Part shown: positions 3,407 through 5,412 of the stretch, piece after piece | How positions within the stretch are numbered: the stretch's first letter is position 1 | Layout of the letters: every line of letters starts with the position of its first letter | Sequence record: OQ349392.1 | Source: Escherichia phage KIT06 | Reading direction: 5' to 3' (one strand) | DNA length: 64,000 bases | Made by a program: the position numbers and the translations under genes | The notes under the pieces: generated by a model | Told to the model about the DNA's origin: nothing | The model's database searches: none | Seen by the model: only the letters and a program-made list of their open reading frames with translations

Positions 3407-3479
3407 TGGGAATTAGCCAAGTTGGTAAGGCATAGCACTTTGACTGCTAGATGCAAAGGTTCGAGTCCTTTATTCCCAG
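3407..3479 (+). tRNA. tRNA-Gln (anticodon TTG)
   Basis: Cloverleaf folded by hand: acceptor TGGGAAT/ATTCCCA, anticodon stem TAGCA/TGCTA, loop CTTTGAC, T-loop GGTTCGAGTCC. Confidence 0.85.
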
Positions 3480-3480
3480 C

Positions 3481-3567
3481 GCGAGAATGGTCAAATTGGT
3501 AAAGGCACAGCACTTAAAATGCTGCGGAATGATTTCCTTGTGGGTTCGAGTCCCACTTCTCGCACCA
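3481..3567 (+). tRNA. tRNA-Leu (anticodon TAA)
   Basis: Acceptor GCGAGAA/TTCTCGC, loop CTTAAAA, long variable arm, encoded CCA. Confidence 0.85.
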
Positions 3568-3572
3568 AATTT

Positions 3573-3647
<75 letters not shown>

Positions 3648-3657
3648 ATTTAATTTA

Positions 3658-3731
3658 CTCCGTGTAGCTCAGTTTGGTAGAGCGTCTGCTTTGGGAGCAG
3701 AATGTCGCAGGTTCAAATCCTGCCGCGGAGA
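3658..3731 (+). tRNA. tRNA-Pro (anticodon TGG)
   Basis: Acceptor CTCCGTG/CGCGGAG, loop TTTGGGA, T-loop GGTTCAAATCC; no encoded CCA. Confidence 0.8.
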
Positions 3732-3733
3732 CT

Positions 3734-3823
3734 GGAGGCGTGGCAGAGTGGTTTAATGCACCGGTCTTGAAAACCGGCAGTCGCTCCGGCGACTCATAGG
3801 TTCAAATCCTATCGCCTCCGCCA
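3734..3823 (+). tRNA. tRNA-Ser (anticodon TGA)
   Basis: Acceptor GGAGGCG/CGCCTCC, loop CTTGAAA, long variable arm, encoded CCA. Confidence 0.85.
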
Positions 3824-3828
3824 GTTTT

Positions 3829-3904
3829 GCTGATTTAGCTCAGTAGGTAGAGCAACTCACTTGTAATGAGAAGGTCGGCGGTTCGATTCCGTCAATCAGC
3901 ACCA
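3829..3904 (+). tRNA. tRNA-Thr (anticodon TGT)
   Basis: Acceptor GCTGATT/AATCAGC, loop CTTGTAA, encoded CCA. Confidence 0.85.
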
Positions 3905-3905
3905 A

Positions 3906-3980
3906 GGCCCTGTAGCTGGAAGGTTCAAGCAAGCGACTCATAATCGCCAGATGGTGGTTCAATTCCACCCAGGGCCACCA
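3906..3980 (+). tRNA. tRNA with CAT anticodon (Ile via lysidine as in T4, or Met)
   Basis: Acceptor GGCCCTG/CAGGGCC, loop CTCATAA, encoded CCA; occupies the tRNA-Ile position of the T4 array. Confidence 0.75.
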
Positions 3981-3989
3981 AATTAATTT

Positions 3990-4076
3990 GGGGAGTTATC
4001 CCGTAGAGGTAGCGGTGTGGACTGTAAATCCATTGTCATTGCGACTCGGGTGGTTCGACTCCATCACTCCCCACCA
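3990..4076 (+). tRNA. tRNA-Tyr (anticodon GTA)
   Basis: Acceptor GGGGAGT/ACTCCCC, loop CTGTAAA, long variable arm, encoded CCA. Confidence 0.75.
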
Positions 4077-4080
4077 ATTT

Positions 4081-4155
4081 GGATGTGTAGCTCAATGGCA
4101 GAGCGATCGCCTGTTAAGCGATTGGTTATAGGTTCGAATCCTATCACGTCCGCCA
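4081..4155 (+). tRNA. tRNA-Asn (anticodon GTT)
   Basis: Acceptor GGATGTG/CACGTCC (one G-U), anticodon stem ATCGC/GCGAT, loop CTGTTAA, encoded CCA. Confidence 0.75.
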
Positions 4156-4159
4156 AATC

Positions 4160-4235
4160 CGAGGCATAGCTCAGAAGGAAGAGCAAGGACCTTCTAAGTC
4201 CTAGGTCGTAGGTTCGATCCCTATTGCCTCGACCA
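4160..4235 (+). tRNA. tRNA-Arg (anticodon TCT)
   Basis: Acceptor CGAGGCA/TGCCTCG, loop CTTCTAA, T-loop TTCGATC, encoded CCA. Confidence 0.8.
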
Positions 4236-4251: not shown

Positions 4252-4602
4252 ATGAAAGGTAATGTTTATTTAGTAGTTCATGGTTTAACATTCTATTTTA
4301 ATCACAATGACACTGTTATTTCTGAACGTGTAATTAATTTACTTTATCAGCATGCAGATTATGTTTATGTCGAAAACGAATACGGTCATTGGCAATTTCT
4401 CAAAAATCGTTCATTTGGTTTAGATGGTTACGAATACTTTGAACGTAAAGACCTTTTAGATAAAATTCCATTATCTACACAATATCAAAATCACAAGTCT
4501 TTATATAAATGCCGTCCAATTCGAAATGCTGAATCTGCGTATGAAGTAATTGATTTATGGCGTAAACGTCGTGGACAGGTTGATGCTTTAAAAGAATATT
4601 AA
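4252..4602 (+). CDS. hypothetical protein
   Basis: 116-aa ORF with GAGGAAAATATG ribosome-binding site directly after tRNA-Arg. Confidence 0.5.
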   Translation: MKGNVYLVVHGLTFYFNHNDTVISERVINLLYQHADYVYVENEYGHWQFLKNRSFGLDGYEYFERKDLLDKIPLSTQYQNHKSLYKCRPIRNAESAYEVIDLWRKRRGQVDALKEY

Positions 4603-4604
4603 GA

Positions 4605-4915
4605 AACCGGGTCGCTACCGGTAAGTCGTCGGACTGATGTTCCCTGGGTAAGGACTGGCATTAACAAATCTTTACGATCTGTTAATGTCCCCTTACATCA
4701 CAGCAGAAACGGCGCACCGAATTATCGATTCGAGGAAATATCTTTGCCGTAAGCCGAGTAGCGTTTTTGACGGAACGTTCGGATATGGTCGAGATATGGC
4801 CTTTTAAAAATATTGAGTAGCGTCAACTACTCAATAACCGGGTTCGAATCCCGGCGTTTCGTACAAACACTTGCCTTAGCAGGTGGAACCCCGACAAGGT
4901 TGCCGCAAGGCTTAG
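4605..4915 (+). ncRNA. structured non-coding region, probably stable RNA species (T4 rnaC/rnaD-like)
   Basis: ~310 bp without ORF, tRNA-like T-arm CCGGGTTCGAATCCCGG at ~4838-4854, ends at a strong terminator; T4 has two stable RNAs beside its tRNA cluster. Confidence 0.4.
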
Positions 4916-4941
4916 CCCCGACCGAAAGGTCGGGGCTTTTT
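4916..4941 (+). terminator. rho-independent terminator (GAAA tetraloop hairpin plus T-run)
   Basis: CCCCGACC-GAAA-GGTCGGGG followed by CTTTTT. Confidence 0.75.
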
Positions 4942-5075
4942 GGCATCTAGGCCTTTCTGGACCTCTCTAGGCATCATTTAGTTTCTACCCTTTATAATAT
5001 ATTATCCTACATTTTAATTGCCCCTCCCTGCCCTAGAATTCCCTAAAACTTTTTAAAAAATTTTTCACAAAACTG

Positions 5076-5104
5076 TTTACATCCCCGTTCTTCCATGGTA
5101 CTAT
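5076..5104 (+). promoter_or_regulatory. T4-type early promoter
   Basis: TTTACA-N17-TACTAT with TTTTTCACAAAA upstream element. Confidence 0.7.
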
Positions 5105-5148: not shown

Positions 5149-5412
5149 ATGGATAATTACGGCGAACTGTTCAACTTCTTTATGAAATGCGTTTCAGAAG
5201 ATTTCGGTCGTACAGTGAATGATATTAAAGTCATCGGTCCTGACCATCCGATGTTTGAAACTTACGCAGTAATGGGTAATGAAGACGGTCAGTGGTATAC
5301 TGTAAAAGTTGTGATTAATATGTTCACTGCTGAAGGTTATGTTAAACTGTCTTCTAAAGTTTACCACGATAACGATGAAATCGCAGAAGAATATTTCAAT
5401 AATATGAAATAA
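5149..5412 (+). CDS. hypothetical protein
   Basis: In-frame ATG 5149 after GGAG; the annotated 5095 start lies inside the promoter. Confidence 0.5.
   Translation: MDNYGELFNFFMKCVSEDFGRTVNDIKVIGPDHPMFETYAVMGNEDGQWYTVKVVINMFTAEGYVKLSSKVYHDNDEIAEEYFNNMK

What the first reader, a model, noticed from the sequence alone, without database searches (positions are those of the whole stretch)
4605..4941. ORF-free structured RNA region after the tRNA array
About 330 bp with no plausible ORF, a tRNA-like T-arm (CCGGGTTCGAATCCCGG) and a strong GAAA-tetraloop terminator. This is consistent with the small stable RNAs T4 encodes beside its tRNAs, but here a 116-aa ORF separates it from tRNA-Arg, so the arrangement differs.
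Basis: partly seen in the sequence, partly recalled or inferred. Interest (0 to 1): 0.4.

Follow-up and report, generated by a model that had tools for sequence, protein, structure and literature searches.

The report
Phage T4 stable RNAs rnaD/rnaC
This stretch encodes the two small stable RNAs (species 2 and species 1) that T4-type phages make at the end of their tRNA operon. They have been known since the 1970s and still have no known function, and one is a tRNA look-alike whose two arms seem to lock onto each other.

Summary
The window is a Tequatrovirus (T4-like coliphage).

**What the interval 4605-4941 holds**
- The orthologue of T4 rnaD (species 2 RNA), about 4599/4603-4718, 86% identical to T4.
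- A 7-nt spacer.
- The orthologue of T4 rnaC (species 1 RNA), 4726-4862, 135 of 137 bases identical.
- A conserved trailer.
- The GAAA-tetraloop intrinsic terminator of the tRNA operon, 4914-4941.

**Arrangement.** A 116-aa ORF (phrog_3355, unknown function) does separate tRNA-Arg from rnaD, unlike in T4. This arrangement is common among sequenced relatives.

**What the comparison adds.** Rfam has no family for either RNA. In 28 non-redundant homologues from at least six Tevenvirinae genera, rnaC folds as a non-decoding tRNA mimic:
- a 7-bp acceptor stem with two invariant U·U pairs;
- a canonical T arm, a discriminator U, and a CCA that is added or, in one clade, encoded;
- a 71-73-nt arm where the D arm would be;
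- a hairpin with a 6-nt loop where the anticodon arm would be.

The two apical hexamers are always complementary: UUGACG/CGUCAA, and UUGGCG/CGCCAA in Marfavirus-type phages. I infer a 6-bp kissing interaction.

**Verdict.** Function is still unknown. Already known; modest interest.

The parts
4599..4718 (+). rnaD orthologue (T4 species 2 RNA). The conserved core starts at G4603. The 5' end is placed by homology to T4 and overlaps the TAA stop (4600-4602) of the upstream ORF. The 3' end is ...GGCGCACC (T4 encodes ...CACCA; here the next base is G4719).
   Evidence: Alignment to T4 rnaD, 86%. Annotation in NC_000866 and X03016. MFE z = -3.19. RNAalifold consensus of 10 homologues.
4606..4622 (+). 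rnaD P1 hairpin: ACCGG / CCGGU stem with the loop GUCGCUA. Invariant in all 10 non-redundant homologues.
4645..4702 (+). rnaD variable central arm (approximate limits). It occurs in at least three unrelated sequence types among relatives, and carries most of the window-versus-T4 differences, several of them compensatory.
4719..4725 (+). Spacer GAAUUAU between rnaD and rnaC. It is the 5' leader of rnaC, and the same (A)AUUAU leader follows a tRNA CCA end in Karamvirus-type phages. The inferred RNase P cut lies between U4725 and C4726.
   Evidence: The 5' end of T4 species 1 RNA is annotated at the homologous C (X03016 4741). The RNase P step is from the classical T4 literature, recalled from memory.
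4726..4862 (+). rnaC orthologue (T4 species 1 RNA): 137 nt encoded, from +1 C to the discriminator U. CCA is not encoded here; the next bases are ACA.
   Evidence: 135/137 identical to T4. X03016 annotates 137 nt. MFE -52.3 to -52.4 kcal/mol, z = -4.95. Covariation.
4726..4732 (+). rnaC acceptor stem, 5' strand CGAUUCG. It pairs with 4855-4861 (CGUUUCG). Pairs 4 and 5 are U·U in all 21 sequences. Pair 3 is A-U in 9 sequences and G-C in 12.
   Evidence: helix 1.
4733..4802 (+). rnaC long arm in the position of a D arm (70 nt here). The base stem AGG/CCU is invariant. The arm is 71-73 nt by the measure in every homologue, although its sequence falls into at least 5 unrelated clusters.
4767..4772 (+). 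Apical loop UUGACG of the long arm: kissing partner 1.
   Evidence: helix 4: 100% of cells paired; A-U in 16 sequences, G-C in 5.
4811..4836 (+). rnaC anticodon-arm-like hairpin: a 10-bp stem, with 8 of its 10 pairs showing changes on both sides.
   Evidence: (helix 5).
4821..4826 (+). 6-nt loop CGUCAA: kissing partner 2, the exact complement of 4767-4772.
4838..4854 (+). rnaC T arm: CCGGG-UUCGAAU-CCCGG.
   Evidence: helix 6.
4855..4862 (+). rnaC acceptor 3' strand CGUUUCG plus the discriminator U4862.
   Evidence: Marfavirus-type homologues continue directly with an encoded CCA.
4863..4913 (+). Conserved structured trailer between rnaC and the terminator. It is kept in Dhakavirus VR5, where rnaC itself is absent.
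4914..4941 (+). Intrinsic terminator of the tRNA operon: a 9-10-bp G+C-rich stem, a GAAA loop and UUUUU.
   Evidence: The homologous T4 feature is annotated as 'pot. terminator'. A transcript ending after species I is stated in PMC2330249.
4252..4602 (+). Context: a 116-aa ORF between tRNA-Arg and rnaD. It is absent from T4.
   Evidence: phrog_3355, unknown function, E = 4.5e-54. No Pfam family.
3407..4235 (+). Context: an array of 10 tRNA genes (Gln, Leu, Gly, Pro, Ser, Thr, Met-CAU, Tyr, Asn, Arg) on the same strand, upstream in the same presumed transcription unit.

Best explanation
The interval is the distal end of the phage's tRNA operon. It encodes the orthologues of T4's two small stable RNAs, rnaD (species 2) and rnaC (species 1), followed by a conserved trailer and the operon terminator.

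**Shown here**
- Orthology, synteny and the secondary structures.
- rnaC is a tRNA-shaped RNA that cannot decode. It has a 12-bp acceptor/T-arm stack: a 7-bp acceptor stem with two invariant U·U pairs, a canonical T stem-loop and a discriminator U.
- A 70-nt arm replaces the D arm.
- The 'anticodon' arm has a 10-bp stem and a 6-nt loop.

**Inferred from covariation.** The apical loop of the long arm (UUGACG) pairs with that 6-nt loop (CGUCAA). The pairing is either a 6-bp kissing interaction that closes the molecule on itself, or a head-to-tail link between two molecules.

**Inferred from T4 knowledge and annotation**
- Both RNAs are co-transcribed with the tRNAs and the 116-aa ORF.
- RNase P cuts between U4725 and C4726 to make the rnaC 5' end.
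- The 3' side is trimmed to U4862 and the host enzyme adds CCA.
- rnaD is released between the ORF and this cut.

**Function, not shown by anyone.** My best guess is that rnaC acts in trans as a tRNA-shaped ligand, that is a decoy, sponge or adaptor, for a host or phage protein that recognises the acceptor/T-arm/CCA end of tRNAs. Its anticodon-like loop would be masked. rnaD is a separate module with a conserved core and a fast-evolving arm, and its role may depend on the host.
For: **Identity**
- Alignment to T4 rnaD/rnaC: rnaC 98.5%, rnaD 86%, trailer and terminator 94%.
- Same neighbours as in T4: a tRNA array upstream and an e.8-like ORF downstream.
- 813 phage records match, nearly all Tevenvirinae of enterobacteria.

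**rnaC fold**
- MFE z = -4.95.
- RNAalifold on 21 sequences returns the same fold, with 20 of 35 pairs carrying compensatory changes.
- For the hand-specified structure including the kissing helix, 92.4% of cells pair, against 82.2% in shuffles (0/500 shuffles reach it).
- 16 pairs change on both sides, against 10.4 in shuffles and 1-4 in the slid controls.

**Kissing helix**
- The two hexamers are complementary in 28 of 28 non-redundant homologues.
- They sit at fixed positions in arms of 71-73 nt whose sequences fall into at least 5 unrelated clusters.
- A double change is present, UUGACG/CGUCAA to UUGGCG/CGCCAA.

**tRNA-like ends**
- X03016 places the T4 5' end on the C that pairs with the base next to the discriminator, and annotates 137 encoded nt. 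That fits the 140 nt I recall for the mature RNA if CCA is added.
- Marfavirus-type homologues encode CCA right after the discriminator.
- In Karamvirus, Gelderlandvirus and Erwinia phages, rnaC sits inside the tRNA array (Trp | rnaC | Gly) with a tRNA-type leader and trailer.

**Expression of the T4 orthologues**
- Northern blot and RNA-seq (PMC9697503).
- A single operon transcript ending after species I (PMC2330249).

**Hint of a host-dependent role.** A convergent SNP arose in rnaD in three lines of a T4-like phage evolved on a semi-permissive host (PMC12685909).
Against: - There are no transcript data for this particular phage. All ends are placed by homology.
- The rnaD 5' end is uncertain, because its upstream context (an ORF stop codon) differs from T4 (a tRNA-Arg CCA end).
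- The kissing helix rests on invariance plus one compensatory change, seen in a single clade. That is one evolutionary event.
- Scans of viral and metagenome collections found no further clade.
- Whether the contact is within one molecule or between two cannot be decided from sequence.
- An alternative 8-bp pairing of the 3' strand with ACGGAACG in the long arm is perfect in T4-type sequences. It could be a second conformer.
- The decoy/adaptor function is pure inference. Reviews and recent papers state that the function is unknown. As I recall the T4 literature, deletions of the tRNA region are viable on laboratory hosts.
- RNase P processing and the 140-nt length are recalled from classical literature that I could not open here.
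Confidence: 0.9

Rival explanations
1. These are cis-acting parts of the tRNA operon rather than trans-acting RNAs. On this reading the structured 3' modules protect the polycistronic precursor from 3' exonucleases or organise its processing, and the stable fragments are by-products.
For: They sit at the 3' end of the operon just before the terminator in T4-type phages. A conserved structured trailer is kept even where rnaC is missing. Processing by tRNA enzymes is expected.
Against: - In Karamvirus, Gelderlandvirus and Erwinia phages, rnaC lies in the middle of the tRNA array, between tRNA-Trp and tRNA-Gly, where it cannot act as a 3' cap.
- In Marfavirus-type phages it stands almost alone.
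- The invariant loop hexamers, the invariant U·U pairs and the constant arm length are more than a protective hairpin needs.
Confidence: 0.1
2. rnaC and/or rnaD are base-pairing riboregulators. On this reading the conserved hexamer loops, or the rnaD loop GUCGCUA, seed pairing with a host or phage mRNA or tRNA instead of with each other.
For: - Short invariant single-stranded loops on stable hairpins are typical seed regions.
- CGUCAA contains GUC and UUGACG contains GAC, so either could in principle meet a codon or an anticodon (read directly from the sequence).
- PMC9697503 calls them small regulatory RNAs of unknown function.
Against: - The two rnaC hexamers change together in the Marfavirus clade. 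Mutual pairing predicts this; an external target would have had to change as well.
- Six nucleotides is a short seed.
Confidence: 0.08
3. The region holds decayed tRNA genes (pseudo-tRNAs) with no function of their own.
For: - A tRNA-like T arm and acceptor are present.
- There is a weak tRNA-Sec hit: 18.5 bits against a gathering score of 47.
- ARAGORN and some annotators call part of the PG7 homologue a 95-nt 'tRNA-Met', or 'tRNA-OTHER' in another phage.
Against: - rnaC is more conserved than its surroundings: 98.5% to T4, and recognisable across at least six genera.
- Its helices are kept through compensatory changes, and its non-tRNA features never vary.
- The T4 RNAs accumulate as discrete stable species.
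Confidence: 0.02
4. The interval encodes small proteins, as many GenBank records annotate ('hypothetical protein' over this stretch).
For: Automatic annotations place CDSs of 40-55 aa here in relatives, for example R5505 1982-2110 and 2116-2277. ORFs of 40 and 45 aa exist in the window.
Against: - The ORFs are short, and one starts with TTG.
- They are not kept across the divergent homologues, whose arms differ completely in sequence but keep the pairing.
- G+C is tRNA-like rather than like phage coding DNA.
- T4 records annotate RNAs here.
Confidence: 0.01

Closest known systems
Phage T4 rnaC (species 1 RNA; 'band C')
   Same: 135 of 137 encoded bases are identical. It occupies the same place between rnaD and the operon terminator, with the same leader, trailer and fold.
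   Different: Two substitutions: one in the long arm, and one that turns a G·U into a G-C pair in the anticodon-like stem.
Phage T4 rnaD (species 2 RNA; 'band D')
   Same: The conserved 5' hairpin, closing stem and 3' segment are identical, and the position directly upstream of rnaC is the same.
   Different: - The central arm differs, partly through compensatory changes.
- T4 encodes ...CACCA at the 3' end; the window has ...CACCG.
- In T4 the 5' end abuts tRNA-Arg; here it abuts or overlaps the stop codon of a 116-aa ORF.
Canonical tRNA
   Same: A 7-bp acceptor stem stacked on a 5-bp T stem, the GGUUCGAAUCC T loop, a discriminator base and a CCA end. It is located in or next to tRNA arrays with a tRNA-type leader.
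   Different: - There is no D arm; a 70-nt arm stands in its place.
- The anticodon-like arm has 10 bp and a 6-nt loop.
- Two invariant U·U pairs lie in the acceptor stem.
- It is not called by ARAGORN and does not reach the Rfam tRNA thresholds in the window.
tRNA-like domain of tmRNA, bacterial and phage YrlA (Y RNA-like) RNAs, plant-virus 3' tRNA-like structures, mascRNA
   Same: These are partial tRNA mimics that use an acceptor/T-arm module to engage tRNA-processing enzymes without decoding. This comparison is from general knowledge; the review-type papers are listed.
   Different: - No tmRNA was called, and there is no tag reading frame.
- No Rfam family matched.
- In YrlA, as I recall, the two ends form the Ro-binding stem rather than an acceptor stem.
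- Plant-virus tRNA-like structures build the acceptor with a pseudoknot at the 3' end of a genome. Here the 5' and 3' ends pair conventionally.
- The loop-loop lock is not a feature I know from any of these.
Loop-loop kissing complexes (ColE1 RNA I/II, HIV-1 TAR-TAR* and DIS; the T-box specifier-anticodon contact)
   Same: Six Watson-Crick pairs form between two hairpin loops. 6-nt loops that pair completely are known from TAR-TAR* (general knowledge).
   Different: Here both loops lie in one 140-nt tRNA-shaped RNA. Whether they meet within one molecule or between two is not known.

Membership tests
T4 rnaC (species 1 RNA) | Sequence homology to the T4 gene over its full length | tested here: met
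   135/137 identical to X03016 4741-4877.
T4 rnaC (species 1 RNA) | Location at the distal end of the tRNA operon: after rnaD, before the terminator and the e.8-type ORF, on the same strand | tested here: met
T4 rnaC (species 1 RNA) | Conserved fold: acceptor/T-arm module, long arm and 6-nt-loop hairpin | tested here: met
T4 rnaC (species 1 RNA) | Accumulates as a stable RNA of about 140 nt, with the 5' end made by RNase P and CCA added | not testable with these tools
   There are no expression data for this phage. The T4 RNA is detected by Northern blot (PMC9697503). RNase P and the 140-nt length are from classical literature, recalled from memory.
T4 rnaD (species 2 RNA) | Sequence homology to the T4 gene, and position immediately upstream of rnaC | tested here: met
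   105 identical over 122 columns, with the 5' 45 nt and 3' 25 nt nearly identical.
T4 rnaD (species 2 RNA) | 5' end directly after the tRNA-Arg CCA end, as in T4 | tested here: not met
   A 116-aa ORF intervenes. This is a difference of context, not of the RNA. Relatives show several different upstream contexts.
T4 rnaD (species 2 RNA) | Stable transcript of about 120 nt | not testable with these tools
   Known only for T4.
tRNA (Rfam RF00005 / ARAGORN) | Cloverleaf with a D arm and a 7-nt anticodon loop, scoring above the family threshold | tested here: not met
   - No ARAGORN call in 4599-4941.
- No Rfam hit at gathering score.
- Best weak hit is tRNA-Sec, 18.5 bits against 47.
- The loop is 6 nt and the D arm is replaced.
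tmRNA | tRNA-like domain plus a tag-peptide reading frame, detectable by ARAGORN or Rfam | tested here: not met
Rho-independent terminator | G+C-rich hairpin directly followed by a U run, at the end of a transcription unit | tested here: met
   - 9-10 bp stem, GAAA loop and UUUUU at 4914-4941.
- The homologous T4 hairpin is annotated as a potential terminator.
- The simple scan missed it, and I did not establish why.
- Termination itself was not tested.

The most novel reading that the evidence does not exclude
rnaC is a self-locking tRNA mimic. A codon-like triplet in the long-arm loop (GAC, or GGC in Marfavirus-type phages) pairs with an anticodon-like triplet in the 6-nt loop (GUC, or GCC). 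The RNA would then show cells only its acceptor/T-arm/CCA face. Together with the fast-evolving rnaD, it would serve as an anti-defence decoy against host systems that attack or sense tRNA 3' ends or elbows. That would explain why the RNAs are dispensable on laboratory strains yet conserved across genera, and why an rnaD SNP arose convergently on a semi-permissive host.
Probability: 0.1. Interest if true: 0.65.

Novelty: already known. Interest (0 to 1): 0.3.

Why it matters
As a finding in this window it is a rediscovery. The two RNAs are annotated in the T4 reference genome, and their T4 versions were sequenced as RNA decades ago.

**Why it is still of some use**
- Their function has been an open question for about fifty years.
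- No curated RNA family exists for them.
- Many phage genomes mis-annotate this stretch as hypothetical proteins or odd tRNAs.

**What the comparison adds**
- A concrete and cheaply testable structural model for rnaC: a tRNA mimic with a conserved loop-loop lock and invariant U·U pairs.
- A map of which parts are constant and which are free to vary.
- The observation that rnaC and rnaD are independent modules with different distributions.

These points could guide mutagenesis, probing and pull-down experiments, and could seed covariance models for annotation.

Tried and rejected
**1. Rfam.** Nothing reached gathering thresholds in the interval. At permissive E-values there were only chance-level hits: tRNA-Sec 18.5 bits, and terminator look-alikes.

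**2. ARAGORN.** No tRNA or tmRNA was called in the interval.

**3. Alternative acceptor pairing.** ACGGAACG (4770-4777) pairs with CGUUUCGU; this is the fold behind the tRNA-Sec hit and the 95-nt 'tRNA-Met' call in PG7.
- It is perfect in T4-type sequences.
- Across 21 homologues it shows no compensatory change and is not above shuffles.
- It ignores the annotated T4 5' end.
- I rejected it as the main fold and kept it as a possible alternative conformer.

**4. rnaD as a second tRNA mimic.** T4 encodes ...ACCA at its end. However, the predicted closing stem uses part of that CCA, the 5' hairpin loop GUCGCUA is not a T loop, and relatives have ...CACAG or ...CAAAG instead. Not supported.

**5. 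The ~555-bp extra DNA in many relatives.** I first suspected an insertion inside the RNA region. It lies after the terminator, as a late-promoter plus 157-aa ORF cassette (phrog_2280) with a duplicated terminator. It is irrelevant to the RNAs.

**6. Search for more covariation in the kissing loops.**
- I ran three pattern scans of viral contigs, one scan of metagenome contigs, and BLAST with divergent homologues.
- Many metagenome hits were unrelated coding sequences.
- New lineages all carried UUGACG/CGUCAA: Moonvirus, Gelderlandvirus, Kosakonia, Ursula and Erwinia phages.
- That leaves one covarying clade.

**7. Pfam and PHROGs on the flanking ORFs.** Only families of unknown function were returned.

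**8. Literature on function.**
- None was found. The Miller 2003 review and the 1970s-80s primary papers are not held in the library.
- No covariance model was built, because 98.5% identity to T4 already settles membership.
Full report
**Where we are.** The window is a T4-like coliphage. A 951-base query around the finding matches 825 phage records, the best at 95-97% identity and nearly all of them Tequatrovirus and relatives. ARAGORN and Rfam find ten tRNA genes on the + strand at 3407-4235: Gln, Leu, Gly, Pro, Ser, Thr, Met-CAU, Tyr, Asn and Arg. A 116-aa ORF follows at 4252-4602, and then the interval in question.

**Check of the observation.**
- The longest ORFs overlapping 4605-4941 are 40 and 45 aa.
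- CCGGG-TTCGAAT-CCCGG lies at 4838-4854.
- A 9-10-bp G+C-rich stem with a GAAA loop and five T lies at 4914-4941.
- All three segments fold better than every one of 200 dinucleotide shuffles: z = -4.95, -3.19 and -3.86.
- Their G+C content is 45-57%. That matches the tRNA array (49.5%), not the window (34.6%) or the adjacent ORF (30.5%).

**What it is.** The T4 reference genome annotates the order tRNA-Arg, rnaD ('species 2 RNA'), rnaC ('species 1 RNA') at 70908-71247. The older T4 record X03016 gives the RNA ends. Aligning the window to T4 gives:

| Segment | Window | T4 (X03016) | Identity |
|---|---|---|---|
| rnaD | 4599-4719 | 4615-4734 | 105 identical of 122 columns |
| rnaC | 4726-4862 | 4741-4877 | 135 of 137 |
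| Trailer plus terminator | 4863-4945 | 4878-4960 | 78 of 83 |

The rnaD differences are concentrated in its central arm. The interval is therefore two known small stable RNA genes, a 7-nt spacer, a conserved trailer and the operon terminator.

The arrangement difference is also real. T4 has tRNA-Arg abutting rnaD, whereas here the ORF intervenes and its TAA stop (4600-4602) overlaps the position homologous to the T4 rnaD 5' end. The difference is ordinary, though: most close relatives share the ORF. The ORF belongs to phrog_3355 of unknown function and has no Pfam family. The SegB paper describes T2L, RB1 and RB3 tRNA regions that lack segB and carry tRNA-Asn, and two ORFs of unknown function in the T2L region (PMC2330249).

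**State of knowledge.** The function of both RNAs is unknown.
- A 2010 review says so (PMC3014915).
- A 2022 omics study detected them by RNA-seq and Northern blot, classed them as late RNAs and called their function unknown (PMC9697503).
- A 2025 evolution study found one convergent SNP, inside rnaD, in three lines of a T4-like phage adapting to a semi-permissive host (PMC12685909).
- Rfam release 15 has no family that matches either RNA.
- From memory of the classical literature, which I could not open here: species 1 RNA is 140 nt, its 5' end is made by RNase P from the dimeric precursor p2Sp1, and it is cut by RNase III in vitro.

**Anatomy of rnaC.** X03016 starts species 1 RNA at the C homologous to C4726 and annotates 137 encoded nt, ending at the U homologous to U4862. 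With these ends the RNA has four parts:
- **Acceptor stem.** 5' CGAUUCG pairs with CGUUUCG-3' over 7 bp, with U·U at pairs 4 and 5. It is stacked directly on a canonical T arm and followed by a discriminator U.
- **Long arm.** An irregular hairpin of about 70 nt stands where a D arm would be. Its base is the stem AGG/CCU.
- **Anticodon-like hairpin.** It has a 10-bp stem and the 6-nt loop CGUCAA.
- **3' end.** 137 encoded nt plus CCA gives the 140 nt I recall for the mature RNA.

**Homologues.** I collected them from annotated phage genomes, IMG/VR and metagenome contigs. There are 28 non-redundant sequences, from:
- Tequatrovirus, Mosigvirus and Gaprivervirus;
- Karamvirus, Kanagawavirus and Moonvirus;
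- Gelderlandvirus;
- Marfavirus-type Klebsiella phages;
- an Erwinia phage.

**Support for the rnaC fold.** RNAalifold on 21 of these sequences returns the same fold without any input from me. Of its 35 pairs, 20 carry compensatory changes. I then counted a hand-specified structure on the same alignment:
- 92.4% of cells are paired, against 82.2% in shuffles (0 of 500 shuffles reach it).
- 16 pairs change on both sides, against 10.4 in shuffles and 1-4 when the 3' partners are slid.

Helix by helix:
- Acceptor pair 3 is A-U in 9 sequences and G-C in 12. Pairs 4 and 5 are U·U in all 21.
- The apical stem of the long arm covaries at 5 of 5 pairs.
- The anticodon-like stem covaries at 8 of 10 pairs.

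Marfavirus-type homologues continue ...CGUUCCGU-CCA, so CCA is encoded right after the discriminator. This independently supports a tRNA-type 3' end.

In Karamvirus, Gelderlandvirus and Erwinia phages, rnaC sits inside the tRNA array between tRNA-Trp and tRNA-Gly. It has the same AAUUAU-type leader that follows rnaD here. It is inherited and, presumably, processed like a tRNA gene.

**The loop-loop complementarity.** The long arm falls into at least five sequence clusters that cannot be aligned with each other. Even so:
- It is always 71-73 nt long.
- Its apical hexamer is at the same position in every sequence.
- That hexamer is always the exact complement of the 6-nt loop of the anticodon-like hairpin.
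- The pair is UUGACG/CGUCAA in 23 sequences, and UUGGCG/CGCCAA in the 5 Marfavirus-type sequences.

On the 21-sequence alignment the six pairs are 100% paired, with A-U in 16 sequences and G-C in 5 (helix 4). The flanking bases do not extend the complementarity in the T4, PEi26 and Marfa types (read from the sequences).

I therefore infer a 6-bp kissing interaction between 4767-4772 and 4821-4826. The weaknesses are these:
- It rests on a single covarying clade, that is one evolutionary event.
- No further clade turned up despite several scans.
- Sequence cannot tell an intramolecular lock, which needs the long arm to bend back, from a head-to-tail dimer.

I found no mention of this pairing in the searchable literature, but the primary structural papers are not held there.

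**Alternative fold considered.** The 3' strand CGUUUCGU can also pair perfectly with ACGGAACG (4770-4777). This is the fold behind the weak tRNA-Sec hit and the 95-nt 'tRNA-Met' that ARAGORN and the PG7 annotators call in that phage. Across the 21 sequences it is 86.9% paired, has no compensatory change and is not above shuffles. It also ignores the annotated 5' end. It may be an alternative conformer in T4-type sequences, but it is not the conserved fold.

**Anatomy of rnaD.** Ten non-redundant homologues share:
- an invariant 5' hairpin (ACCGG/CCGGU with loop GUCGCUA, 4606-4622);
- an invariant closing stem (4625-4631 with 4710-4717);
- a short inner helix with one U-A to A-U exchange;
- a central arm that comes in at least three unrelated sequence types.

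T4 encodes ...CACCA at the 3' end, the window ...CACCG, and other relatives ...CACAG or ...CAAAG. I see no convincing tRNA-like module in rnaD.

**The two RNAs are independent modules.** Dhakavirus VR5 has tRNA-Arg, rnaD, the trailer and the terminator, with rnaC precisely absent. Karamvirus-type and Marfavirus-type phages have rnaC in the loci examined here, with no rnaD next to it.

**How it most likely works.**
- *Shown:* orthology, synteny, the folds, and the tRNA-type ends in homologues.
- *Established for T4 and inferred here:* one transcript runs through the tRNA cluster and ends after species I (PMC2330249). RNase P makes the rnaC 5' end, which here would fall between U4725 and C4726. 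The 3' end is trimmed and CCA is added.
- *Inferred:* the kissing lock masks the only anticodon-like element, so the RNA presents a tRNA acceptor/T-arm/CCA face without being able to decode.
- *Speculative:* it acts in trans as a decoy, sponge or adaptor for a protein that recognises that face. The convergent rnaD SNP on a semi-permissive host hints that the pair matters in some hosts only.

**Rivals.**
- A purely cis-acting processing or stability role fits the operon-end position in T4-type phages. It does not fit the mid-array or stand-alone positions elsewhere.
- A base-pairing regulator using the loops fits less well than mutual pairing, because the two loops changed together.
- Decayed tRNA genes are contradicted by the conservation pattern and the covariation.
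- Small proteins are contradicted by the conservation pattern, the covariation and the composition.

**Verdict.** The window adds an ordinary variant of gene order. The comparative structure model for rnaC, and the modular picture of rnaC and rnaD, are the only new elements. They make an old open question somewhat more testable, so I rate the interest as modest.

Noticed in passing
window 3407-4235: The tRNA array has ten genes, including Met-CAU, Tyr and Asn, and no segB gene. T4 has eight tRNAs with segB between tRNA-Ile and tRNA-Arg. According to PMC2330249, the tRNA-Asn gene of segB-less relatives (T2L, RB1, RB3) carries the preferred SegB cleavage site, so this phage would be a recipient in SegB-driven marker exclusion.
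   Followed up: partly
window 4252-4602: A 116-aa ORF (phrog_3355, unknown function, no Pfam family, 30.5% G+C) is inserted between tRNA-Arg and rnaD. Its stop codon overlaps the position homologous to the T4 rnaD 5' end, so an mRNA segment must be cut away between two stable RNAs.
   Followed up: partly
L002 (phage R5505) 2236-2800; homologous to just after window 4941: Many relatives carry an extra cassette of about 555 bp directly after the operon terminator. It has a TATAAATA late-promoter-like box, a 157-aa ORF (phrog_2280, unknown function) and a second, near-duplicate copy of the terminator. It looks like a gene cassette gained or lost by recombination between terminator copies.
   Followed up: partly
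window 4863-4913; L005 (VR5) 1621-1660: The trailer between rnaC and the terminator (ACACUUGCCUUAGCAGGUGGAACCCCGACAAGGUU...) is conserved and predicted to be structured. It is retained in Dhakavirus VR5, where rnaC is precisely absent. Its role (processing signal, or a third small RNA) is unknown.
   Followed up: no
L003 (PG7) 1554-1648; hits H63, H107 (G9062); L002 1982-2277: Public annotations of this locus are inconsistent. The 3' two-thirds of rnaC is called a 95-nt 'tRNA-Met' in PG7 and by ARAGORN, and 'tRNA-OTHER' in G9062. Many genomes place 40-55-aa 'hypothetical protein' CDSs over rnaD and rnaC. Only a few records (T4, RB3, ATK47) name rnaC.
   Followed up: partly
L004 (PEi26) about 1570-1810: Downstream of rnaC in Edwardsiella phage PEi26 lies about 240 bp of unannotated, G+C-rich sequence with another T-arm-like motif (GUAGGUUCGAGCCCUAU) and a terminator-like hairpin. 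ARAGORN calls no tRNA there. It may be a further tRNA-like or stable RNA.
   Followed up: no
window 4757-4765 and 4815-4823: The 9-mer GAGUAGCGU occurs in both rnaC arms, just 5' of or overlapping each kissing hexamer, in T4-type sequences. In the fGh-Ecl01/VPA32 type the two apical hairpins are near reverse complements of each other over 12 nt (GUAGUUGACGCU / AGCGUCAACUAC). This may reflect the origin of one hairpin from the other.
   Followed up: no
window 5076-5104: A promoter-like site (TTTACA, 17 nt, TACTAT with an upstream TG) lies just upstream of the e.8-like ORF (5149-5412, phrog_2678). This fits a separate transcription unit starting after the tRNA-operon terminator.
   Followed up: no
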